A stretch of DNA of 31,433 nt, from the NCBI GenBank assembly GCA_023252055.1, contig JAHEXP010000015.1:1-31433 (forward strand). The letters are read 5' to 3'. Both the position numbers and the translations under genes were made by a program. The notes under the pieces were generated by a model. It ran no database searches and was not told where the DNA came from. It saw only the letters and a list, made by a program, of their open reading frames with translations. The stretch comes from Coriobacteriia bacterium. GTDB lineage: Bacteria; Actinomycetota; Coriobacteriia; Anaerosomatales; PALSA-660. Positions 4,578-31,433 of the stretch are shown in pieces. The first letter of the stretch is position 1, and each line of letters starts with the position of its first letter.

Positions 4578-6206
4578 TCAGCCCCGGAACCGGTTGGTTA
4601 CCGGCATCCTGCGGTCCTTGCCGAACGCCTTCGGCGTCACGCGGATGCCGAGCGGCCCCTGGCGACGCTTGTACTCCGCAGCGTCGACCATGCGGGTCAC
4701 CCGCTCCACCGTCGCCCGGTCGGCGCCTCCGGCCACGATCTCGTCCACCGATGCATCGTGCTCCACGTACTCGCGCAGGATCGGATCCAGCACGTCGTAG
4801 GCGGGAAGCGAGTCGGTGTCCGCCTGGCCCGGGCGGAGCTCCGCCGATGGGGGCTTGACGATGCTCGCCACCGGGATCACCTCGCGCAGCCTGTTGCGCC
4901 AGTGCGCGAGTTCGTAGACGCGGGTCTTGTACAGGTCCTTGATGGGGGCGAAACCGCCCACCATGTCGCCGTACAGTGTGGAGTAGCCGACGGAGAGCTC
5001 CGATTTGTTGCCGGTGGCGAGCACGATCCACCCGAACTTGTTGGACAGCGCCATCAGGAGGGTCCCGCGGACCCTCGCCTGCAGGTTCTCCTCGGCAACA
5101 TCCGGATCCAGGTCGTCGAACGAGGCCGCGAGCGTCCCGAGCAGGGCCGAGAACCCCTCCTCGATGGACAGCACGCGGGACTCGATACCGAGGTTACCGG
5201 CGAGCGTGCGGGCATCCTCGATGCTGCCGGGCGACGAGTACCGCGAGGGCAGCATGACACCGTGCACGTGCTCCCGCCCCAGCGCATCCACCGCGAGTGC
5301 CGCTGTGAGCGCCGAATCGATGCCGCCGGACAGGCCGATCACCGCATCACTGAACCCGTTCTTGCGGAAGTAGTCCGACAATCCCACGACGAGCGCCTGC
5401 CAGACCTCCTCGTGCCCTCCCATCAGCGGCTCCTCACGAACCGGCGATGGTGCCGCCGGGACGTCGGCGATGAGCAGATCGGGCGCGAACGCGTGTGCAC
5501 GTCCGATCACCCGACCCTGCGGATCGATGAGCACCGAGCGGCCGTCGAAGACGAGTTCGTCCTGACCGCCCACGAGGTTGCAGTAGACGAGGTGCACGCC
5601 GTTGCGGCTCGCCCGCTCCGACAGCATGTCCTCGCGGTCGCTCCCCTTCCCCGCGTGGAACGGGGATGCTGAGATGTTGAGCACCACTGTTGCGCCGAGT
5701 GCCGCCGCTTCCTCCACGAGTTCCGGCACCCAGACGTCCTCGCAGATCGTCACAGCGCACACCACGCCGTCGGACTCCACCAGAAGCGGGCGGTCGCCGG
5801 GCTCGAAGTAGCGCTCTTCGTCGAACACGCCGTAGTTGGGGAGCCGTCGCTTGTGGTAGACCCCCTGGACCGCGCCACCCGAGAGCACGGCGGCCGCGTT
5901 GTAGAGGTGGCCGTCGGCGGCGTCCACGAAGCCGACGATCGCGATAAGCCCATCGCACTCCAACGCCAGCCGGTCGAGGACGAGGCGCGTGTCGCGCACG
6001 AAACGGGCGCGTCCGATGAGGTCTTCGGGCGGGTATCCCGTGAGCCCGAGTTCCGGCGTGAGCAGGATGTCCGCCCGCTCGATGCGCGCGGTGCGCGCGG
6101 CTGCGGCGATGAGTGCAGAGTTCCCGGCGAGGTCCCCGACGGTGGCGTCGATCTGAGCGAGTGCGATCCGTGGCACGGCTGTCGAATCCCTTCTCGGAAA
6201 CGTCAT
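4578..6206 (-). CDS. nadE: glutamine-dependent NAD(+) synthetase (N-terminal CN-hydrolase domain plus C-terminal NAD synthetase domain)
   Basis: ORF 4578..6293 minus. ...RIALAQIDATVGDL... (nitrilase-like domain), ...GLSGGIDSALTAALA... (PP-loop SGGxDS), ...VLATGNKSELSVGYSTLYGDMVGGFAPIKDLYKT.... The start is ATG 6206 (MTFPRR) or, better supported by an upstream GAAGGGA SD, the GTG at about 6176 (VPRIALAQ). Confidence 0.9.
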   Translation of the reverse strand: MTFPRRDSTAVPRIALAQIDATVGDLAGNSALIAAAARTARIERADILLTPELGLTGYPPEDLIGRARFVRDTRLVLDRLALECDGLIAIVGFVDAADGHLYNAAAVLSGGAVQGVYHKRRLPNYGVFDEERYFEPGDRPLLVESDGVVCAVTICEDVWVPELVEEAAALGATVVLNISASPFHAGKGSDREDMLSERASRNGVHLVYCNLVGGQDELVFDGRSVLIDPQGRVIGRAHAFAPDLLIADVPAAPSPVREEPLMGGHEEVWQALVVGLSDYFRKNGFSDAVIGLSGGIDSALTAALAVDALGREHVHGVMLPSRYSSPGSIEDARTLAGNLGIESRVLSIEEGFSALLGTLAASFDDLDPDVAEENLQARVRGTLLMALSNKFGWIVLATGNKSELSVGYSTLYGDMVGGFAPIKDLYKTRVYELAHWRNRLREVIPVASIVKPPSAELRPGQADTDSLPAYDVLDPILREYVEHDASVDEIVAGGADRATVERVTRMVDAAEYKRRQGPLGIRVTPKAFGKDRRMPVTNRFRG

Positions 6207-6979: not shown

Positions 6980-7186
6980 CTCGCGCGCCCGCGATGTCGT
7001 ATGGTGGCGTCGGGGGTCGTTTCGAGGGCGTTTTGGCGTCGCGCCGCCGCGCTACACGGATCCTTACCAGCTTCTGGTCGATTCTTGATACATCCTTGAG
7101 ATGTTCTTATGCGGCGCGACGGTAAGTACTCCCTCAACGCGACAACAGGTTCGCGCGGACTTTCGACCGAGGGGAAGGCACAAGCC

Positions 7187-9433
7187 ATGTTCGATGTGGG
7201 GGTTCTGACGGCGATCGCGCTATGGATCGTCGGGATCATCGTGACCGTCGTGGTCGCGCTCAAAGTGCTCGGAGTTCGGGTCATCCGCTCCGATCAGGTC
7301 GGCGTGGTCGAGAAATGGTGGTCGCCCAAGGGTTCGCTGAAGGACTCGATCATCGCCATGAAGGGCGAGGCCGGCTACCAGCCGGAAGTGCTGCGCGGCG
7401 GTATCCATTTCCGCTCGCCGTTCATGTACCGCGTCCGCGTGATGCCGCTGATCACGATCCCGCAGGGCAAGATCGGCTATGTGTTCGCTCGTGACGGCAT
7501 CCCGATGCAGCCGGAGCAGACGCTCGGCCGCGTTGTGGAGTGCGGCAACTACCAGGACGTGCGCGGGTTCATGGCCAATGGCGGCCAGAAGGGCCCCCAG
7601 CGCTCGATCATCCGCGAGGGCACGTACGCGCTGAACCTGGCGCAGTTCATGGTCATCACGGAAAGCCACGTCTACTACCTCCCGATGGGCTACAAGGAGG
7701 AGGAGTCGTCGATCATGTCGATGGCGACCTACCTCGGCAGCGTCGGCGGGTTCAGCCCCGTGGTCATCAAGGGCGCCGAGGACCGTGTCGGCATCGTCAC
7801 CGTGCACGACGGCCCGTCGCTGCCGATGGGCGACATCATCGCTCCCTCGATCGGCGACGTCGCCGCCGAGCCGGACTATCACAACAACTTCCAGAACCCT
7901 GAGGCGTTCTTGAAGGCCGGCGGCTTCCGTGGGCGTCAGTACCAGGTCCTCACGGAGGGCACGTACTTCATCAACCGCCTGTTCGCGACCGTCGAGCTCA
8001 TCGAGAAGACGATCGTCCCCATCGGCTACGCCGGCGTAGTCGTCAGCTACATCGGGCCGAAGGGCGCCGACGTCTCGGGCGAGGAGTACCGCCACGGCGA
8101 ACTCGTCACGACCGGCTTCCGCGGCGTGTGGAACGAAGCGCTCATGCCGGGCAAGTACGCGTTCAACACGTACGCCGGCAAGGCGATCCTCGTCCCCACC
8201 ACGAACATCATCCTCAAGTGGATCAAGGGCGAGACCGGCGCGCACAACTTCGACGCCAACCTCTCGGAGATCGGGCTCATCACCAAAGACGCGTTCGAGC
8301 CGTCCCTGCCGCTGTCCGTGGTCATCCACATCGACTATAAGAAGGCCCCGCTCGTGATCCAGCGCTTTGGCGACATCGCGATGCTCGTCAACCAGACGCT
8401 CGACCCGATGGTGTCGAGCTACTTCAAGAACGTGGGCCAGACCAAGACGCTGATCGAGCTCATCCAGCAGCGAAACGAGATCCAGGCCCGAAGCAGCGAG
8501 GAGATGAAGGTGCGTTTCGCCCGATACAACCTCGAGTTGGAAGAGGTTCTCATCGGCACTCCGCGCTCCCCCGAGGGCGACACGAGGATCGAGACGATCC
8601 TCACCCAGCTGCGCGACCGGCAGATCGCCTTCGAGAAGCTCGAGACGTTCGACAAGCAAAAGATCGCCGCCGACAAGGAGCGCGAGCTCAAGCAGGCGAT
8701 GGCCGTCGCCGAGCAGCAGACGATGCTCACGCAGTCCGAGATCAACATCCAGGTGCAGGAGAACCAGGGCCGCGCCGAGCTTCAGCGGGCCGCCCAGGAC
8801 GCCGAGCGCGTGAAGACGCTGGCTCGAGGCGACGCCGAGAAGGTCAAGACGCTGGCCGCCGGTGAGGCCGAGAAGGTCAAGCTGCTGGCAGGCGCCGAGC
8901 AGGCGCGCATGAAGATGATCGCCGACGCCGAGGCCACCCGCATCCGCCTCACCGCGGAAGCGGACGCCGACCGCGAGGCCCGCGTGGGCATCGGCCGCGC
9001 GATAGCCATCGAGGAGCAGGTCAACGCATACGGCGGCCCGCAGCTCCAGCTGGCCCAGGACGTCATGACGAAGATGGCGCAGGCCATCGAGACGTCCAAG
9101 GTGCCGATCGTCCCGCAGACGGTCGTCAACATGGGCGGCGGCGAGGGCGGCGACACGACCGCGAGCAACAACGCGTTCGGCCTGCTGCTGGCACTCCTCA
9201 CCTCCGAGAAGCTCGGCGCTCCCATCGTCGGCGAGAAGCCGGATGCGAAGAGAAGCGCCCAGGTCACGGCGCTGCGAAGCTCAGTGATGGAAGGCGCGAC
9301 GAGGACTCCGGAGAACACCGCGGCAGCTGCCGCGGAGCCCTCGAAGCCGGCCGCGAAGGTCGAGCGCCCGATGGAGTCCCAGTCGCTGCCGCAGACGCAC
9401 TCGAAGGACGCAGCGGAGAAGCCGGCCAAGTAG
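7187..9433 (+). CDS. flotillin-like SPFH/Band-7 family protein (YqiK-like) with N-terminal TM helix and long C-terminal EA-rich coiled coil
   Basis: ORF 7109..9433 plus; probable start MFDVGVLTAIALWIVGII (7187) with a GGGGAAGG SD. SPFH region ...VVEKWWSPKGSL...IIREGTYALNL..., a second SPFH-like segment, then the flotillin coiled coil with ...AERVKTLARGDAEKVKTLAAGEAEKVKLLAGAEQARMKM... repeats. The alternative start is the 7109 ATG. Confidence 0.85.
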   Translation: MFDVGVLTAIALWIVGIIVTVVVALKVLGVRVIRSDQVGVVEKWWSPKGSLKDSIIAMKGEAGYQPEVLRGGIHFRSPFMYRVRVMPLITIPQGKIGYVFARDGIPMQPEQTLGRVVECGNYQDVRGFMANGGQKGPQRSIIREGTYALNLAQFMVITESHVYYLPMGYKEEESSIMSMATYLGSVGGFSPVVIKGAEDRVGIVTVHDGPSLPMGDIIAPSIGDVAAEPDYHNNFQNPEAFLKAGGFRGRQYQVLTEGTYFINRLFATVELIEKTIVPIGYAGVVVSYIGPKGADVSGEEYRHGELVTTGFRGVWNEALMPGKYAFNTYAGKAILVPTTNIILKWIKGETGAHNFDANLSEIGLITKDAFEPSLPLSVVIHIDYKKAPLVIQRFGDIAMLVNQTLDPMVSSYFKNVGQTKTLIELIQQRNEIQARSSEEMKVRFARYNLELEEVLIGTPRSPEGDTRIETILTQLRDRQIAFEKLETFDKQKIAADKERELKQAMAVAEQQTMLTQSEINIQVQENQGRAELQRAAQDAERVKTLARGDAEKVKTLAAGEAEKVKLLAGAEQARMKMIADAEATRIRLTAEADADREARVGIGRAIAIEEQVNAYGGPQLQLAQDVMTKMAQAIETSKVPIVPQTVVNMGGGEGGDTTASNNAFGLLLALLTSEKLGAPIVGEKPDAKRSAQVTALRSSVMEGATRTPENTAAAAAEPSKPAAKVERPMESQSLPQTHSKDAAEKPAK
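8798..8995 (+). repeat. in-frame 33-bp (11-aa) tandem repeats encoding the flotillin EA-repeat coiled coil
   Basis: Units gacgccgagcgcgtgaagacgctggctcgaggc / gacgccgagaaggtcaagacgctggccgccggt / gaggccgagaaggtcaagctgctggcaggcgcc ..., about six units, the first three best conserved. Confidence 0.5.
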
Positions 9434-28499: not shown

Positions 28500-29249
28500 C
28501 TAGACGACGCGGCTGACCAGTCCGCCGATACCCTCGATGCGCACCTCGACGGTGTCCCCCGAGTGCAACTCGCCGATCCCTGCAGGCGTTCCCGTGAGCA
28601 CGATGTCGCCCGGCAGGAGCGTCATGACCGAGCTGATGAAGCTCACCAGCTTCGGGACGCTGAAGATCATGTCGCTCGTGCGGGCCGACTGGACGAGGTT
28701 CCCGTTCAGGTACGTCTCCAGCAGCAGGTCCGACGGGTCGACGTCCGTCTCGACCCAGGGGCCCAGCGGGCAGAAGCCGTCGAAGCCCTTCGCGCGCGTC
28801 CATTGGCCGTCGCGCGCCTGCAGTTCTCGGGCTGTGACGTCGTTGGCGCAGGTGTAGCCCAACACGTAGGTGAGCGCGTCGTCCTCGCTCACATGGTGTG
28901 CGCGGCGCCCCATCACGACGGCCAGTTCGCCTTCGTAGTCGACCCTCCCCGCGCCCTCCGGCAGGTGGATGTCACCCAGCGGAGCGTTCATCGAGGTCGG
29001 GGGCTTGAGGAAGATGAGCGGCTCGAGCGGAAGGTCGTGGCTCATCTCGCGGGCGTGTGTCGTGTAGTTGACGCCCACACACACGATCTTCGTCGGCATC
29101 GCCGGGGGCATGAGCCGCGCGCCCACCATGGAGATGACGTCGTCGGTCTCCCAGGCGGCGAAGGGCTCATCCGAGATGAGCGTGATGCTCGTGGCGTCGG
29201 CGAGGCCGTACCGAACGTCCTCGCCCGTGAACACCCTGACCACGCGCAT
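28500..29249 (-). CDS. fumarylacetoacetate hydrolase (FAH) family protein (2-keto-4-pentenoate hydratase / HpaG-like)
   Basis: ORF 28500..29249 minus. ...KIVCVGVNYTTHAREMS......PLIFLKP..S.......I.LP.GAGRVDYEGELAVVMGRRA......DALTYVLGYTCANDVTARELQ......WTRAKGFDGFCPLGPWV... and ...GDIVLTGTPAGIG... are FAH-fold signatures. Confidence 0.85.
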   Translation of the reverse strand: MRVVRVFTGEDVRYGLADATSITLISDEPFAAWETDDVISMVGARLMPPAMPTKIVCVGVNYTTHAREMSHDLPLEPLIFLKPPTSMNAPLGDIHLPEGAGRVDYEGELAVVMGRRAHHVSEDDALTYVLGYTCANDVTARELQARDGQWTRAKGFDGFCPLGPWVETDVDPSDLLLETYLNGNLVQSARTSDMIFSVPKLVSFISSVMTLLPGDIVLTGTPAGIGELHSGDTVEVRIEGIGGLVSRVV

Positions 29250-29358
29250 GCGCTTCCCGTTCCTCCGTGAGCCTACGGCGGCTTCATGCCGCCTACGTGA
29301 TAGTTCGACTTCTGCGCGCCCTCCCCTGCTAGCGGGCGGCGACCGGCGGCGGAAAGAG

Positions 29359-29390
29359 AGAGGCCCCGGTCCGTGTGGACCGGGGCCTCT
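29359..29390 (-). terminator. intrinsic terminator of the multiheme cytochrome gene (AGAGGCCCCGGUCC acac GGACCGGGGCCUCU then UCUCUUUCC)
   Basis: Perfect 14-bp stem, 4-nt loop, 28 nt after the stop at 29418 on the minus strand, followed by a pyrimidine/U-rich run. Confidence 0.6.
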
Positions 29391-29417
29391 CGAAGTGGTG
29401 CGGTAAAGCGACGGATC

Positions 29418-31433
29418 CTAGTAGTGGCACTCGTAGACGGAGCAGCCCGAGTCGCCCGAGTGGAGCGTGTCCCAGTCGACCCCGCTCAAGTCCGCCGCCG
29501 CAGTACCCACGGTGCCGTGGTGGCAGTCGGAGCAGGCCCACCCGAGCGCTCCAACAGTGCCGCTCGGCGGATAGTAGTCGGAGTGCCAACTCATGCTGTT
29601 GTGGCAGTTGTTGCACTCGTCGTGGATCGCCGTATGCGACGCGAACGTCACGGTCGGGTGGCAGCCGGTGCTGCTACAGGTGGTGCTCCCCGTGAGCGTC
29701 TTGGCGCCGTCGTGGCAGACCGCACACGTCTTGCGAGCGTGTGTGGTGATCAGGTTCGTCTGGTGGCAACCCGCGCTGATGCACGAGTTCGACTTGGTGT
29801 GGCCCGTGTCGTAGGCCGGGTGCAGTGTCGTGGATGAAACCGTGGTCGGGTGGCAGCTGGCGCACGTAGCGCTGCCTGCGGCCACGGCGTTCTTGACGGT
29901 GGTCGAGGCGGACGCACCGTGGCACGTCGTGCAGGTCGTGCTGTGCTTGGCCGACACCGTTCCGTTCGACAGTTTCACAGAGGTCAGCGCGGTACCAGGA
30001 TGGCAACTCACACAGCCGTCACTGCGGGTCAGCGCGTGGATCGTGGGCAGGTCGTGCTGATCGTGGCAGCTCGCGCAGGTGGCGCCGCCGGCAGCGACCG
30101 CGTTCTTCGTGCGGGTCGGCGCGGAGGCCCCGTGGCAGGTCGCGCACAGCGCGTGCTTCGTGGCCACAGCGCCGCTCGAGAACGTGACCGTGTTGAGCGT
30201 GGTGCCCGTATGGCATGTCACGCACTGATCCGTGCGCGAGACCGCGTGGATGACCGGGATGTCGTGACCGTCGTGACAGCTGGCGCATGTGGCGCTGCCG
30301 GCAGCGACCGCGTTCTTGGTGCGGGTGGACGCCGATGCGCCGTGGCAGGTCGCGCACAGCGCGTGCTTCGTGGCCACCGCGCCGCTGGAGAATGTGACCG
30401 TGTTGAGCGTCGTGCCGGTGTGGCAGTCGACACACGAATCGGTGCGCGTCACCGGGTGGATCGCCGGCAGATCGTGGCCGTCGTGGCAGCTGGCGCATGT
30501 GGCGCTGCCTGCAGCGACCGCGTTCTTCGTGCGGGTGGAGGCCGATGCGCCGTGGCAGGTGGCGCAACTCGTGTGCTTGGTTGCCAGGGTCGTGCCGTCG
30601 GAGAACGTCACCGTGTTGAGTGTCGTGCCCTTGTGGCAGTCGATGCACTGGTCCGTGCGCGACACCGCGTGGATGACCGGCAGGTTATGAGCGTCGTGGC
30701 AGCTGGCGCAGGTGGCGCCGCCGGCAGCGACCGCGTTCTTGGTGCGGGTCGGAGCGCTCACGCCGTGGCATGTCGCGCACGCTGCATGCTTGGTCGCGAC
30801 CGCTCCGGTGGAGAACTTGATCGTGTTGAGATCGGTGCCGGCGTGGCAGGTCACGCAGTCATCGGTGCGGCTCACCGCGTGGATGACCGGCAGGTTATGC
30901 GCGTCGTGACAGCTGGCGCAGGTGGCGCCGCCGGCAGCGACCGCGTTCTTGGTGCGGGTCGGCGCGCTCACGCCGTGGCATGTCGCGCACGCTGCGTGCT
31001 TGGTCGCGACCGCTCCGGTGGAGAACTTGATCGTGTTGAGATCGGTGCCGGCGTGGCAGGTCACGCATGCGTCCGCACGCGCAACCGCGTGGATGACCGG
31101 CAGATCGTGGCCGTCGTGGCAGCTGGCGCAGGTGGCGCCGCCGGCAGCGACCGCGTTCTTCGTGCGGGTGGAGGCCGAGGCCCCGTGGCAGGTCGCGCAC
31201 AGCGCGTGCTTGGTTGCCAGGGTCGTGCCGTCAGAGAACGTCACCGTGTTGAGTGTCGTGCCCTTGTGGCAGTCGATGCACTGGTCCGTGCGGCTGACCG
31301 CGTGGATCACCGGGATGTTGTGGCCGTCGTGACAGCTGGCGCATGTGGCGCCGCCGGCAGCGACCGCGTTCTTGGTCCGGGTGGACGCCGATGCCCCGTG
31401 GCAGGTCGCGCACAGCGCGTGCTTCGTGGCCAC
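29418..31433 (-). CDS. giant modular multiheme c-type cytochrome, C-terminal 671 aa (N-terminus beyond window end); about 29 heme-binding motifs in visible part
   Basis: Minus-strand frame open from the window end to the stop at 29418. At least seven and a half consecutive 70-aa modules ATKHAxCATCHGASASTRTKNAVAAGGATCASCHDGHxLPVIHAVSRTDxCVxCHxGTxLNTVxFSxGxx. Each carries three CxxCH, the first two forming a 'doubled CXXCH' pair about 20 aa apart. The C-terminal 170 aa has further CxxCH plus CX3CH (CISAGCH, CSSTGCH) and CX4CH (CSVYECHY) motifs. Confidence 0.8.
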   Translation of the reverse strand: MATKHALCATCHGASASTRTKNAVAAGGATCASCHDGHNIPVIHAVSRTDQCIDCHKGTTLNTVTFSDGTTLATKHALCATCHGASASTRTKNAVAAGGATCASCHDGHDLPVIHAVARADACVTCHAGTDLNTIKFSTGAVATKHAACATCHGVSAPTRTKNAVAAGGATCASCHDAHNLPVIHAVSRTDDCVTCHAGTDLNTIKFSTGAVATKHAACATCHGVSAPTRTKNAVAAGGATCASCHDAHNLPVIHAVSRTDQCIDCHKGTTLNTVTFSDGTTLATKHTSCATCHGASASTRTKNAVAAGSATCASCHDGHDLPAIHPVTRTDSCVDCHTGTTLNTVTFSSGAVATKHALCATCHGASASTRTKNAVAAGSATCASCHDGHDIPVIHAVSRTDQCVTCHTGTTLNTVTFSSGAVATKHALCATCHGASAPTRTKNAVAAGGATCASCHDQHDLPTIHALTRSDGCVSCHPGTALTSVKLSNGTVSAKHSTTCTTCHGASASTTVKNAVAAGSATCASCHPTTVSSTTLHPAYDTGHTKSNSCISAGCHQTNLITTHARKTCAVCHDGAKTLTGSTTCSSTGCHPTVTFASHTAIHDECNNCHNSMSWHSDYYPPSGTVGALGWACSDCHHGTVGTAAADLSGVDWDTLHSGDSGCSVYECHY
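29830..31433. repeat. tandem 210-bp direct repeats (at least 7.6 copies, 85-97% identical; three sequence subtypes arranged A-A-B-C-C-B-A) encoding the cytochrome modules
   Basis: Exact 210-bp periodicity read from the sequence. Units begin tcgtg(g/a)cagctggcgca(g/t)gtggcgc... at 30061, 30271, 30481, 30691, 30901, 31111, 31321. A more diverged copy lies at 29830..30060. The array continues past the window end. Confidence 0.85.

What the first reader, a model, noticed from the sequence alone, without database searches (positions are those of the whole stretch)
29418..31433. Giant repeat-built multiheme cytochrome c (about 29 CxxCH-type motifs in 671 aa, gene continues past window edge)
Seen in sequence: a 70-aa unit with three CxxCH heme-attachment motifs is reiterated at least seven and a half times with very high identity (paired CATCH...CASCH about 20 aa apart, then CIDCH/CVTCH). 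A Cys/His-rich C-terminal domain follows. Heme density is about one per 23 residues, with short Thr/Ala/Gly linkers and no obvious non-heme domain.

This is the architecture expected for a heme 'wire', of the kind used for extracellular or cell-wall-spanning electron transfer. It sits in a chromosome that otherwise looks Gram-positive/high-GC. Homologs there are scarce and poorly characterised. The gene has its own strong terminator and is not obviously in an operon with the adjacent FAH hydrolase.

Neighbours beyond the window (cytochrome maturation genes, secretion signal, anchoring motifs, partner reductases) cannot be assessed. This is the best candidate for an undescribed electron-transfer system in the window.
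Basis: partly seen in the sequence, partly recalled or inferred. Interest (0 to 1): 0.85.

Follow-up and report, generated by a model that had tools for sequence, protein, structure and literature searches.

The report
Giant repeat-built multiheme cytochrome fragment
The end of this contig encodes the last 671 residues of a very large secreted protein carrying about 29 heme groups in a row, most likely a single-molecule "wire" that lets an uncultured Gram-positive bacterium pass respiratory electrons out through its cell wall; complete versions in related genomes carry about 70 to 144 hemes.

Summary
Minus-strand ORF 29418..31433 (671 aa, cut by the contig end) has 26 CxxCH and 3 Cx4CH motifs. 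It consists of seven 70-71-aa triheme units, a degenerate eighth unit, and a 139-aa six-motif C-terminal cap. Every Cys lies in a motif, and there are enough His residues for all-bis-His ligation.

Pfam places it in class III multiheme cytochromes c. The window is an entire 31,433-bp contig of an uncultured Coriobacteriia MAG, broken inside the repeat array.

Syntenic genomes (DnaE 84-88% identical) carry, at the same position upstream of FAH, complete genes of 1829, 2180, 2455 and 3657 aa with 72 to about 144 heme motifs. These have a signal peptide, Ig-like domains and the same cap. They lie in an island of one to four giant cytochrome genes inserted at an otherwise conserved leuA-FAH junction, and they are only 29-34% identical to the window protein.

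The most likely function is an extracytoplasmic electron conduit for extracellular electron transfer. This is inferred, not shown.

Large multiheme cytochromes in this actinobacterial lineage were already reported (2017-2022). I therefore call it a new variant of a known kind, of moderate to high interest.

The parts
29418..31433 (-). 3' part (671 codons plus stop) of a giant multiheme cytochrome c gene. The 5' part is missing because the contig ends inside the repeat array.
   Evidence: open frame, GC3 0.88. Pfam PF09699 108 bits, PF14522 99.9 bits, PF14537 69.4 bits, all above gathering cut-offs; the window equals a whole 31,433-bp contig.
31218..31430 (-). Triheme unit 1 (residues 2-72): 3 CxxCH, 6 His, 6 Cys, 0 Met
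31008..31217 (-). Triheme unit 2 (residues 73-142)
30798..31007 (-). Triheme unit 3 (residues 143-212). It is a mosaic: the first half matches unit 4 and the second half matches unit 2.
   Evidence: (195-nt tract at 97.9% identity, 30663-30857 vs 30873-31067)
30585..30797 (-). Triheme unit 4 (residues 213-283)
30375..30584 (-). Triheme unit 5 (residues 284-353)
30165..30374 (-). Triheme unit 6 (residues 354-423)
29955..30164 (-). Triheme unit 7 (residues 424-493), the most diverged complete unit
29838..29954 (-). Degenerate eighth unit (residues 494-532) that keeps only the paired CxxCH...CxxCH
   Evidence: The best Pfam Paired_CXXCH_1 stretch is residues 500-530.
29421..29837 (-). Conserved C-terminal cap (residues 533-671) with six motifs: Cx4CH, CxxCH, Cx4CH, CxxCH, CxxCH and a terminal Cx4CH followed by Y. 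The core is c3-type tetraheme-like.
   Evidence: only 19 matches among 1.84 billion representatives; family alignment; no Pfam family; profile matches the HmcA C-terminal c3-like domain at E = 6e-13 and GSU1996 at 1e-9.
29358..29391 (-). Perfect 15-bp G+C-rich hairpin with a 4-nt loop, 26 nt downstream of the stop codon. It is a probable intrinsic terminator with a weak U-tail, and it separates the gene from the FAH-family gene (start at 29249).
   Evidence: -42.9 kcal/mol, z = -4.4. Not called by the consensus scan. Coordinates checked.

Best explanation
The region is the C-terminal part of a real, selectively maintained gene for a giant secreted multiheme c-type cytochrome of an uncultured Coriobacteriia bacterium (monoderm, high GC).

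Anatomy shown by the sequence: tandem 70-aa modules each bind three hemes through CxxCH, and three conserved extra His per module supply the distal ligands, so all hemes can be bis-His. The array ends in a conserved six-motif cap with a c3-type tetraheme-like core.

Inferred from positional orthologues: the missing N-terminal part carries a cleavable signal peptide, one or more Ig-like domains, a conserved first heme domain and further heme modules. The whole protein is probably 1,000 to over 3,000 aa with tens of hemes.

Inferred function: after Sec export and extracytoplasmic heme attachment, the protein forms a continuous chain of closely packed low-spin hemes. This chain carries respiratory electrons from a membrane quinol-oxidising cytochrome across and beyond the thick cell wall to insoluble or extracellular acceptors (Fe/Mn oxides, humic or particulate organic matter, electrodes or partner cells). 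It would act as a single-polypeptide wire, not as a polymerised filament.

The gene sits in a lineage-specific, fast-evolving island in which module type and number turn over by intragenic duplication and recombination.
For: SHOWN
- 29 heme-attachment motifs against 0.45 expected by chance.
- Pfam multiheme families score above their gathering cut-offs.
- Cys:motif stoichiometry is exactly 2:1, and there are 59 His for 29 motifs.
- All Cys and His ligand columns are invariant across orthologous units.
- Units are under purifying selection: median dN/dS 0.25 with dS 0.23-1.07.
- Codon usage matches the host.
- The host is Coriobacteriia.

FROM ORTHOLOGUES
- The syntenic position (FAH-MFS-x-TrpR-dnaE-his) carries complete genes of 1829 aa (72 motifs), 2180 aa (88), 2455 aa (88) and 3657 aa (about 144).
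- Nearly all full-length family members have an N-terminal hydrophobic signal sequence with AxA near residue 31. They have no other hydrophobic segment and no LPXTG.
- Ig-like Big_13 domains are present.
- The same cap closes the protein in many members.

LITERATURE
- Related Actinobacteria carry large multiheme cytochromes and are linked to iron reduction (PMC5520028).
- A Coriobacteriales genome with 37 multiheme cytochromes was among the most abundant organisms on an anode biofilm (PMC7399161).
- The cultured Anaerosomatales isolate Parvivirga is an obligate Fe(III) reducer with 17 multiheme cytochromes and cytochrome c biogenesis genes (PMC9686372).
- Tandem triheme domains form a linear heme wire in GSU1996, with 3-5 Å heme edge-to-edge distances (PMC10138318).
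Against: - The N-terminus of this particular gene is absent, so export is inferred from proteins that are only 29-44% identical.
- No cytochrome maturation genes, quinol dehydrogenase or other partner genes are in the window or next to the orthologues. The rest of the genome could not be read.
- Both AlphaFold2 models were unusable (pLDDT 53 and 50), so linear heme packing is not demonstrated.
- The two closest FAH relatives (L032, L033) have leuA next to FAH without a giant cytochrome, so the gene is dispensable or was lost from those assemblies.
- L044 and L045 show frameshifts.
- The spacing of the last Cys pair varies from CxCH to Cx6CH across the family, so that motif may not bind heme.
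- The unit order and unit number in a short-read assembly of a repeat are uncertain.
- There are no expression or biochemical data.
Confidence: 0.6

Rival explanations
1. Electron reservoir (capacitor), not a conduit. The protein stays at the outer face of the membrane or within the wall and stores tens of electrons when external acceptors are scarce, as proposed for the Geobacter periplasmic poly-triheme cytochromes.
For: The architecture is the same in principle as GSU1996/GSU2210 (tandem triheme domains), which are regarded as capacitors (PMC10138318). Heme number is very large and variable. No terminal-reductase-like or mineral-binding domain was identified.
Against: In a monoderm there is no enclosed periplasm to retain a soluble 70-380 kDa protein. 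The signal peptide looks cleavable and there is no anchor. Ig-like domains and strong sequence hypervariability fit a surface-exposed protein better. The two roles are not mutually exclusive.
Confidence: 0.15
2. Assembly artefact or decaying pseudogene. The repeat array is a mis-assembled, collapsed or chimeric reconstruction, or the real gene is disrupted upstream, so no functional protein of this form exists in this organism.
For: The contig ends inside the array. Adjacent units share 195 nt at 97.9% identity and a 71-nt exact repeat. Many related contigs break in the same gene, and L044 and L045 are frameshifted. The closest relatives L032 and L033 lack the gene.
Against: There are 2,013 nt of uninterrupted frame with host-like codon usage. 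dN/dS is 0.25, with every heme ligand conserved in all units. Intact 1829-3657-aa positional orthologues lie on 0.65-1.3-Mb contigs. An intact cap and terminator are present.
Confidence: 0.1
3. Subunit of a catalytic or polymerising system. The protein could be a terminal reductase with an open-coordination catalytic heme (like OcwA, NrfA or OTR relatives), or a monomer that polymerises into filaments like OmcS, OmcE or OmcZ.
For: Gram-positive surface cytochromes such as OcwA are terminal reductases related to NrfA/OTR (PMC6703420). The cap is conserved and could mediate docking or end-to-end contacts. There are weak profile matches to MtrF, OmcA and octaheme reductases.
Against: There are enough His residues for bis-His ligation of every heme, and no CxxCK or obvious unpaired motif. 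There is no significant match to NrfA/OTR, OcwA-type or OmcS/E/Z families. With 70-144 hemes per chain, polymerisation is not needed to reach long distances.
Confidence: 0.1
4. Non-heme metal-binding repeat protein. The CxxCH and His residues bind Zn, Fe or Cu directly, or form disulfides, without covalent heme.
For: Weak sub-threshold hits to the DnaJ CXXCXGXG zinc-finger profile. No maturation genes were seen.
Against: Strong above-threshold matches to three cytochrome c Pfam families. The motif is always CxxCH or Cx4CH with His immediately after the second Cys, and never CxxC without His. The cap aligns motif for motif with the HmcA c3-like domain, including the distal His residues. The lineage is known to make c-type cytochromes (PMC9686372).
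Confidence: 0.02

Closest known systems
Geobacter poly-triheme 'nanowire' cytochromes GSU1996, GSU0592 (12 hemes) and GSU2210 (27 hemes); TIGR04257 c7-type triheme domain
   Same: A single polypeptide built of tandem domains of about 70-80 aa, each with three CxxCH, joined by short linkers. In GSU1996 the hemes form one linear chain (PMC10138318). GSU1996 (3ov0) is hit by the unit profile (E = 2e-3) and by the cap profile (E = 1e-9). The Pfam Cytochrome_C7 model covers a whole unit (residues 65-127 against profile positions 2-66 of 67).
   Different: - The TIGR04257 score is 33.5, below the cut-off of 40.
- The units contain no Met, whereas each GSU1996 domain has one His-Met heme (PMC10138318).
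- Distal His residues are placed differently from c7 (one before motif 1 and two between motifs 2 and 3). hhalign against PpcA gives only 11% probability.
- The host is monoderm with no periplasm.
- The proteins are several times larger, with N-terminal Ig-like domains and a distinctive cap.
HmcA, the 16-heme high-molecular-weight cytochrome c of Desulfovibrio, and the nine-heme cytochrome c NhcA
   Same: These are the best sequence matches among solved structures for both the unit (2e84_A, E = 1.4e-6) and the cap (E = 6e-13). The four central cap motifs and the conserved His residues align with the C-terminal c3-like tetraheme domain. HmcA is also a concatenation of c3/c7-like domains.
   Different: The NCBIfam HmcA equivalog scores 42.8 against a cut-off of 400. 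HmcA is periplasmic, has a fixed 16 hemes, and is encoded in the hmc operon with membrane subunits. Here there is no such operon, and module number is variable and far larger.
Multiheme cytochromes of Gram-positive metal reducers: OcwA and wall-associated cytochromes of Thermincola, and the Carboxydothermus ferrireducens multihemes
   Same: The same functional problem and a plausible common solution: c-type cytochromes carry electrons across a thick peptidoglycan wall to external acceptors (PMC6703420, PMC7911101, PMC7829351).
   Different: Those systems use several separate cytochromes of about 6-11 hemes arranged in relay. OcwA is a nonaheme related to NrfA/OTR. No specific homology to them was detected here. 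This protein would cover the whole distance as one chain.
Multiheme cytochromes reported in uncultured and cultured Coriobacteriia-related Actinobacteria (HGW-Actinobacteria, Rifle 'S27 Coriobacteriales', Anaerosoma and Parvivirga)
   Same: The same class of organism (DnaE 62-78% identical to MAGs named Coriobacteriia, Anaerosomatales or HGW-Actinobacteria-6). Their genomes are rich in large multiheme cytochromes and are linked to iron or electrode reduction (PMC5520028, PMC7399161, PMC9686372).
   Different: In the passages I read, those papers count or list cytochromes (at least 10 motifs; 17-37 per genome). They do not describe proteins of 1,600-3,657 aa with 55-144 motifs, their modular grammar, the cap, or the leuA-FAH island.
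Giant multiheme cytochromes of Methanoperedenaceae and ANME archaea
   Same: Extremely heme-rich single polypeptides, from at least 50 up to 113 motifs, proposed for extracellular electron transfer (PMC5520028; record cited in PMC11492766 from Leu et al. 2020).
   Different: They are archaeal and often fused to S-layer-type domains (my own knowledge). No specific similarity was found: the family members retrieved here are syntenic Coriobacteriia genes.
Polymerising cytochrome filaments OmcS, OmcE and OmcZ
   Same: A continuous chain of stacked bis-His hemes for long-range extracellular electron transport.
   Different: Those reach length by polymerising 4-8-heme subunits. Here length would be encoded in one gene by module repetition. 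No sequence relationship was detected.

Membership tests
Multiheme c-type cytochromes, class III (Pfam Paired_CXXCH_1 PF09699, Cytochrome_C7 PF14522, Cytochrom_c3_2 PF14537) | Multiple CxxCH (or Cx3-4CH) heme-attachment motifs | tested here: met
   26 CxxCH + 3 Cx4CH. All 58 Cys are in motifs. Shuffle expectation is 0.45.
Multiheme c-type cytochromes, class III (Pfam Paired_CXXCH_1 PF09699, Cytochrome_C7 PF14522, Cytochrom_c3_2 PF14537) | Whole-protein profile score above the curated gathering cut-off | tested here: met
   108.3 against 20.6, 99.9 against 24.8, 69.4 against 25, and PF02085 32.9 against 22.9.
Multiheme c-type cytochromes, class III (Pfam Paired_CXXCH_1 PF09699, Cytochrome_C7 PF14522, Cytochrom_c3_2 PF14537) | Enough distal ligands (His or Met) for hexacoordinate hemes | tested here: met
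   59 His for 29 motifs. There are 6 His per 3-motif unit, at columns conserved across orthologues.
Multiheme c-type cytochromes, class III (Pfam Paired_CXXCH_1 PF09699, Cytochrome_C7 PF14522, Cytochrom_c3_2 PF14537) | Export signal, so that heme is attached outside the cytoplasm | not testable with these tools
   The N-terminus lies beyond the contig end. Positional orthologues and nearly all full-length relatives have a signal-peptide-like N-terminus.
Multiheme c-type cytochromes, class III (Pfam Paired_CXXCH_1 PF09699, Cytochrome_C7 PF14522, Cytochrom_c3_2 PF14537) | Cytochrome c maturation system (Ccm or CcsBA/ResBC) in the genome | not testable with these tools
   None in the window. No CcsA WWD motif in the fetched loci of this lineage. 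The rest of the genome is unavailable. Biogenesis genes are reported in Anaerosomatales isolates (PMC9686372).
Multiheme c-type cytochromes, class III (Pfam Paired_CXXCH_1 PF09699, Cytochrome_C7 PF14522, Cytochrom_c3_2 PF14537) | Covalently bound heme | not testable with these tools
   Requires biochemistry.
c7-type poly-triheme 'nanowire' cytochromes (GSU1996 family, TIGR04257) | Tandem domains of about 70-80 aa, each with three CxxCH | tested here: met
   Seven 70-71-aa units with three CxxCH each.
c7-type poly-triheme 'nanowire' cytochromes (GSU1996 family, TIGR04257) | TIGR04257 score at or above the curated cut-off (40 bits) | tested here: not met
   33.5 bits.
c7-type poly-triheme 'nanowire' cytochromes (GSU1996 family, TIGR04257) | One His-Met coordinated heme per domain | tested here: not met
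   No Met in any of the seven units. The feature is as described in PMC10138318.
c7-type poly-triheme 'nanowire' cytochromes (GSU1996 family, TIGR04257) | Detectable homology of the unit to canonical triheme c7 (PpcA) | tested here: not met
   hhalign probability is 11% and only the paired-CxxCH stretch aligns (PpcA sequence recalled from memory). c7 PDB entries score only E about 0.1.
HmcA hexadecaheme cytochrome (NF045713) | Equivalog score at or above 400 bits, and the 16-heme architecture | tested here: not met
   42.8 bits. Only domain-level similarity: unit E = 1.4e-6, cap E = 6e-13.
MtrA/DmsE decaheme (TIGR03508) and MtrC/OmcA decaheme (TIGR03507, PF22113) | Family score above the curated cut-off | tested here: not met
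   TIGR03508 scores 108.1 against 192.2. TIGR03507 scores 10.5 against 209.3. PF22113 scores 26.7 against 30.
Giant Coriobacteriia cytochrome family defined here (signal peptide, Ig-like domains, heme-module arrays, CH(Y)-terminal cap) | Conserved six-motif C-terminal cap ending in CH or CHY | tested here: met
   The cap is 35-69% identical to those of P0003, P0154, P0155, P0172, P0207 and P0159.
Giant Coriobacteriia cytochrome family defined here (signal peptide, Ig-like domains, heme-module arrays, CH(Y)-terminal cap) | Position directly upstream of FAH-MFS-x-TrpR-dnaE-his | tested here: met
Giant Coriobacteriia cytochrome family defined here (signal peptide, Ig-like domains, heme-module arrays, CH(Y)-terminal cap) | N-terminal signal peptide and Ig-like domain(s) | not testable with these tools
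   This part is missing from the contig.

The most novel reading that the evidence does not exclude
The window gene belongs to an undescribed family of single-polypeptide heme nanowires in monoderm Actinobacteria. In this reading, a secreted protein of 1,600 to 3,657 aa carrying 55 to about 144 hemes spans the cell wall and extends tens to more than 100 nm beyond it without polymerising. Its length and surface are tuned by rapid cassette-like gain, loss and recombination of three or more heme-module types, within a dedicated hypervariable island of one to four such genes (up to about 330 heme motifs in about 30 kb) at the leuA-FAH junction. The largest member would exceed the published record of 113 heme-binding motifs per polypeptide.
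Probability: 0.35. Interest if true: 0.8.

Novelty: new variant of a known kind. Interest (0 to 1): 0.6.

Why it matters
How Gram-positive bacteria move respiratory electrons across a thick wall is much less well understood than it is in Geobacter or Shewanella. For Actinobacteria it rests almost entirely on gene counts.

This locus offers a concrete, testable candidate: a gene-encoded heme chain of defined length that would not need polymerisation or a relay of several proteins.

The family's extreme heme numbers, strictly bis-His modular units and natural length variants would make it useful in three ways:
- for testing how conductance scales with heme number;
- for bioelectronic materials;
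- for interpreting iron, humic and electrode respiration by uncultured Coriobacteriia in anoxic sediments and soils.

The hypervariability is itself a question about the evolution of surface-exposed redox proteins: 29-34% identity between positional orthologues whose neighbouring genes are 70-90% identical. There is also a practical point. These genes systematically break short-read assemblies, so they are likely under-counted in MAG surveys.

Tried and rejected
- **Exact look-up of the FAH and DnaE proteins to extend the contig.** FAH is not on record. DnaE matched only the same 31,433-bp contig, and its context look-up failed. The N-terminus therefore cannot be recovered.
- **Genome-collection scan with the fragment.** It returned only distant hits at 22-28% identity in Proteobacteria, Acidobacteria and others, and not the source species.
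- **First metagenome scan seeded with the cap.** It found nothing. The second scan, seeded with FAH, worked.
- **Single-sequence search against PDB.** No hits. Only profile searches gave matches.
- **Two AlphaFold2 runs** (three units; the cap). pLDDT was 53 and 50. I judged the models unusable, ran no fold search, and draw no structural conclusion from them.
- **Harvesting more units for a deeper alignment.** It gave only about 34 non-redundant units, so I did not pursue it.
- **Consensus terminator scan.** It missed the hairpin because of the poor U-tail.
- **Antisense ORFs on the plus strand.** The ORFs at 29815-30060, 30277-30690 and 30910-31332 passed my first GC3 filter, and plus frame 0 has only one stop in 2 kb. 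I rejected them as genes. The long, nearly open plus frame 0 has its high GC at codon position 1 (0.88), not position 3 (0.54). The short ORFs lie in a plus frame that is broken by 13 stops over the region, and its high GC3 simply mirrors the GC3 of the minus-strand gene.
- **WWD-motif scan for CcsA/ResC in all fetched loci.** The only hit was in an unrelated Aggregatilineales locus.
- **Membership in canonical c7, the GSU1996 family, HmcA, MtrA/DmsE or MtrC/OmcA.** I considered each and rejected it on curated cut-offs.


Full report
**1. What is in the sequence**

The feature lies on the minus strand. An ORF runs from the window edge (31433) to a TAG stop at 29418-29420 and encodes 671 residues.

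It contains 26 CxxCH and 3 Cx4CH motifs, 29 in all, or one per 23.1 residues. All 58 cysteines belong to these motifs, and CxxC never occurs without the following His. Shuffling the protein's own residues gives a mean of 0.45 CxxCH and a maximum of 4. The 1155-aa DnaE of the same contig has none.

The reading frame is the genuine one. GC3 is 0.88 and synonymous codon choice matches dnaE. My first GC3 filter rejected the ORF only because Ala/Thr/Ser/Cys richness raises GC2. That filter passed short antisense ORFs instead, and these are not genes. They lie in a plus frame with 13 stops, whose high GC3 mirrors the minus-strand gene. The nearly open plus frame 0 has its high GC at codon position 1, not position 3.

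**2. Repeat anatomy**

Tandem Repeats Finder reports a 210-bp period with 6.7 copies at 82% match, running to the very last base of the window. The repeat finder gives seven 207-nt copies spaced 210 or 213 nt apart, and eight copies of a 91-nt core.

At protein level there are three parts:
- Seven complete units of 70-71 aa, each with exactly 6 Cys, 6 His and no Met.
- A 39-aa degenerate eighth unit that keeps only the paired CxxCH...CxxCH.
- A 139-aa C-terminal cap with six motifs.

The units are mosaic. Unit 3 combines the first half of unit 4 with the second half of unit 2, and a 195-nt tract is 97.9% identical between neighbours, with a 71-nt exact repeat. That indicates intragenic duplication or gene conversion.

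Pairwise dN/dS among units has a median of 0.25 (range 0.14-0.61), with dS from 0.23 to 1.07. The units are therefore old enough to have diverged at silent sites while the protein sequence stayed constrained. That argues against junk repeats.

A perfect 15-bp G+C-rich hairpin (29358-29391) follows the stop codon after 26 nt. Its U-tail is weak, and the consensus scanner did not call it. The FAH-family gene starts 108 nt further on.

**3. Family assignment**

Pfam scores are well above the gathering cut-offs:
- Paired_CXXCH_1: 108 bits
- Cytochrome_C7: 99.9 bits
- Cytochrom_c3_2: 69.4 bits
- Cytochrom_CIII: 32.9 bits

The Cytochrome_C7 model covers one whole unit.

NCBIfam gives only sub-threshold hits:
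- DmsE: 108 against a cut-off of 192
- HmcA: 43 against 400
- nanowire_3heme TIGR04257: 33.5 against 40

Across units from this protein and its two closest homologues, all six Cys and the His ligand positions are invariant or nearly so. This fits three bis-His hemes per unit.

A unit profile matches solved structures only weakly and generically:
- HmcA: 1.4e-6
- NrfH: 7e-5
- MtrF: 2e-4
- GSU1996: 2e-3
- c7: about 0.1

hhalign against PpcA (sequence recalled from memory) gives 11% probability. The unit resembles c7 in size and heme count, but it is not demonstrably a c7 domain. Unlike GSU1996 domains, it has no Met ligand (PMC10138318).

The cap matches no Pfam family and only 19 of 1.84 billion representative proteins. 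A profile built from 14 family caps nevertheless matches the C-terminal c3-like tetraheme domain of HmcA (E = 6e-13), GSU1996 (1e-9) and nine-heme cytochrome c (4e-7). The four central heme motifs and the conserved distal His residues are in register with those domains.

The cap is thus a c3-type tetraheme-like core with an extra Cx4CH motif before it and a terminal Cys pair after it. The spacing of that terminal pair ranges from CxCH to Cx6CH across the family, so the 29th heme is the least certain.

**4. Organism and why the gene is truncated**

The window's other genes are housekeeping: dnaE, a hisZ-like gene, hisG/D/C/B/H/A, nadE, accD, an MFS transporter, a TrpR-family gene and a FAH-family gene. 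None is a cytochrome maturation gene.

DnaE has a 100% match on an NCBI contig of exactly 31,433 bp, so the window is an entire contig that ends inside the repeat array. Named relatives are MAGs called Coriobacteriia (up to 78% identity), Anaerosomatales and HGW-Actinobacteria-6 (about 62-64%). GC content is 68%. The 'Gram-positive, high-GC' reading is supported.

**5. Full-length orthologues**

Two relatives with DnaE 85-88% identical lie on contigs of 0.65 and 1.3 Mb and are syntenic with the window (FAH-MFS-x-TrpR-dnaE-his).

Directly upstream of FAH, on the same strand, different genomes carry complete cytochrome genes:

| Locus or protein | Length (aa) | Heme motifs |
|---|---|---|
| L028/L029 | 1829 | 72 |
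| L027/L030 | 2180 | 88 |
| L038 | 2455 | 88 |
| P0159 (L111) | 3657 | about 144 (97 CxxCH + 44 Cx4CH + 3 others) |

These proteins begin with a signal-peptide-like segment with AxA near residue 31. One to four Ig-like domains follow, with Big_13 above its Pfam cut-off in P0154. Then come a conserved first heme domain and arrays of at least three different module types, including window-type 70-aa units in a subset. They end with the same cap, finishing in CH or CHY.

The signal sequence is the only hydrophobic segment. No LPXTG-type signal is present.

A search with the 1829-aa orthologue finds at least 70 relatives at E < 1e-20. Most are 1,000-2,700 aa with one motif per roughly 25 aa. All but P0001 (labelled a Coriobacteriia MAG) are unnamed or 'hypothetical protein'.

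**6. The island**

In relatives the gene is part of an island between leuA and FAH:
- L029: leuA, a 1733-aa gene on the opposite strand, then the 1829-aa gene and FAH.
- L030: 1780-aa and 2383-aa genes on the opposite strand, then the 2180-aa gene and FAH.
- One 885-kb contig: leuA, two small genes, 1781-aa and 1641-aa genes on the opposite strand, the 3657-aa gene, FAH, then a 1879-aa gene. That is four giant cytochromes with about 328 motifs in about 30 kb.

No maturation, quinol-dehydrogenase or other redox genes are adjacent.

An FAH-seeded scan of JGI metagenomes returned 80 loci:
- Where FAH is 81% or more identical, a multiheme gene lies upstream (L035-L045).
- In at least 21 more distant loci, LeuA itself (67-85% identical to the annotated LeuA) lies directly upstream.

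The island is therefore a lineage-specific insertion into an ancestral leuA-FAH junction.

It is also unstable. The two closest FAH relatives (87%; L032 and L033) have leuA next to FAH with no giant gene. L043 has a version with about 18 hemes. L044 and L045 show frameshifts. Many contigs, including a 370-kb one, start 1-2 kb upstream of FAH inside the gene. Some of this will be assembly artefact.

Between the window and its syntenic relatives, the flanking proteins are far more similar than the cytochrome:

| Protein | Identity to the window protein |
|---|---|
| HisD | 83-90% |
| DnaE | 84-88% |
| FAH | 81-88% |
| MFS | 70-76% |
| Positional cytochrome | 29-34% (cap 35-37%) |

The closest homologue anywhere is P0001, at 42-45% identity.

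**7. Mechanism**

Shown:
- a heme-attachment motif density typical of multiheme wires;
- stoichiometry compatible with all-bis-His hemes;
- modular construction;
- purifying selection.

Inferred from orthologues: Sec-type export, Ig-like N-terminal domains and the absence of a membrane anchor.

Inferred from established knowledge:
- c-type hemes are attached outside the cytoplasm.
- Bis-His hemes packed 3-5 Å apart conduct electrons along GSU1996 (PMC10138318).
- GSU1996 spans about 12 nm with 12 hemes (my recollection of Pokkuluri et al. 2011). At about 1 nm per heme, the visible 29 hemes could cover about 25-30 nm, and the 72-144 hemes of the orthologues about 70-140 nm. That is comparable to or longer than a Gram-positive wall.

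I therefore favour an extracytoplasmic electron conduit for extracellular electron transfer (confidence 0.6).

The rivals are:
- an electron-storage role (0.15);
- a catalytic or polymerising role (0.1);
- assembly artefact or pseudogene (0.1);
- a non-heme metal-binding repeat protein (0.02).

Both AlphaFold2 attempts failed, with pLDDT 53 and 50. Heme packing is untested.

**8. Comparison with the literature and novelty**

What is already published:
- Large multiheme cytochromes in a deep-branching, Coriobacteriales-related actinobacterial clade were reported in 2017 and linked to iron reduction (PMC5520028).
- A Coriobacteriales genome with 37 multiheme cytochromes was the fourth most abundant genome on an anode biofilm. 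The same paper pointed out unexplained variability in heme number among homologous cytochromes (PMC7399161).
- Cultured Anaerosomatales encode 17-18 multihemes, and one isolate is an obligate Fe(III) reducer (PMC9686372).

The idea of an actinobacterial multiheme electron-transfer system is therefore not new.

My searches of the paper library found no description of the following:
- this family's size class;
- its module grammar;
- the conserved cap;
- the all-bis-His 70-aa triheme unit;
- the hypervariable leuA-FAH island.

A 2024 survey gives 113 motifs (Methanoperedenaceae, Leu et al. 2020) as the record for one polypeptide, and 87 as the maximum in Desulfuromonadia. P0159 would exceed both if its Cx4CH motifs bind heme.

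I classify the finding as a new variant of a known kind, with interest 0.6. The fragment itself is an ordinary-looking multiheme cytochrome piece. The family and locus it points to are unusual.

Noticed in passing
L111:1-9028 and L112:1-9656 (protein P0159; JGI contig Ga0071346_1000045, 885 kb): The positional counterpart of the window gene in this genome is 3,657 aa with 97 CxxCH + 44 Cx4CH + 3 other motifs, about 144 in all. That is more than the 113-motif record quoted in a 2024 survey (PMC11492766). The assembly of such a repetitive gene has not been verified.
   Followed up: partly
L029, L030, L111/L112; window side 28500-31433: An island of one to four giant cytochrome genes (up to about 328 heme motifs in about 30 kb) lies between leuA and FAH. 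It is present only in the sub-lineage with FAH 81% or more identical. More distant Coriobacteriia have leuA directly next to FAH.
   Followed up: yes
L032:4520-5481; L033:4912-5375 (minus-strand ORF 4925-5296): The two closest FAH relatives (87%) lack the giant gene. L033 instead has a 124-aa minus-strand ORF with four heme motifs in the 460-bp gap. It may be a remnant, a small cytochrome, or a collapsed assembly.
   Followed up: partly
L044:3630-9811; L045:1599-5245: The cytochrome genes in these loci are split by an apparent frameshift into two overlapping ORFs (649 + 1502 aa, and 576 + 1035 aa). This could be a sequencing or assembly error in repeats, or real pseudogenisation.
   Followed up: no
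Family N-termini (e.g. P0178, P0184, P0190, P0200, P0203: '...PVRRRILAGAF...'): Many signal sequences carry a twin- or triple-arginine just before the hydrophobic core, which looks Tat-like. That is odd for c-type cytochromes, which are normally exported unfolded through Sec.
   Followed up: no
Family C-termini: At least four alternative endings exist besides the CH(Y) cap. These are a Trp-rich '...W.W.G.W' tail, '...GPTL', '...NNMD', and (in P0160 and P0165) an extra non-heme domain of about 110 aa with a '...HTYYRIDGG...YFYS.D..GN.E' motif that matches no Pfam family.
   Followed up: partly
window 29418-31433, plus strand frame 0: The antisense frame has only one stop codon in 2 kb and yields 65-154-aa ORFs. 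This is a by-product of the Ala/Thr/Cys/His codon composition. Its GC is highest at codon position 1, so it is not coding.
   Followed up: yes
L112:20572-21684 (minus strand): Next to the island is a 370-aa protein with a signal peptide, about seven 'DGG..W...HGWAVG' repeats (it looks like a BNR/Ycf48-like beta-propeller) and a C-terminal transmembrane helix. It has no Pfam hit on record and could be an envelope partner.
   Followed up: no
L036, L037 (370-kb contig), L035, L039, L042; window end 31433: Many independent assemblies break within 1-2 kb upstream of FAH, inside this gene. Giant repeat-built cytochromes are probably systematically truncated or missing in short-read MAGs.
   Followed up: partly
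L001, L002, L004, L008 (Amphritea spp.): Marine Gammaproteobacteria of the genus Amphritea encode multiheme proteins that align with residues 6-645 of the fragment at 27-28% identity over a match of about 2.4-3.0 kb of DNA. They were not examined further.
   Followed up: no
window 7109-9433 (plus strand): A 774-aa protein whose only Pfam hit is an SPFH/Band 7 domain in the middle. The long flanking regions are unannotated.
   Followed up: no
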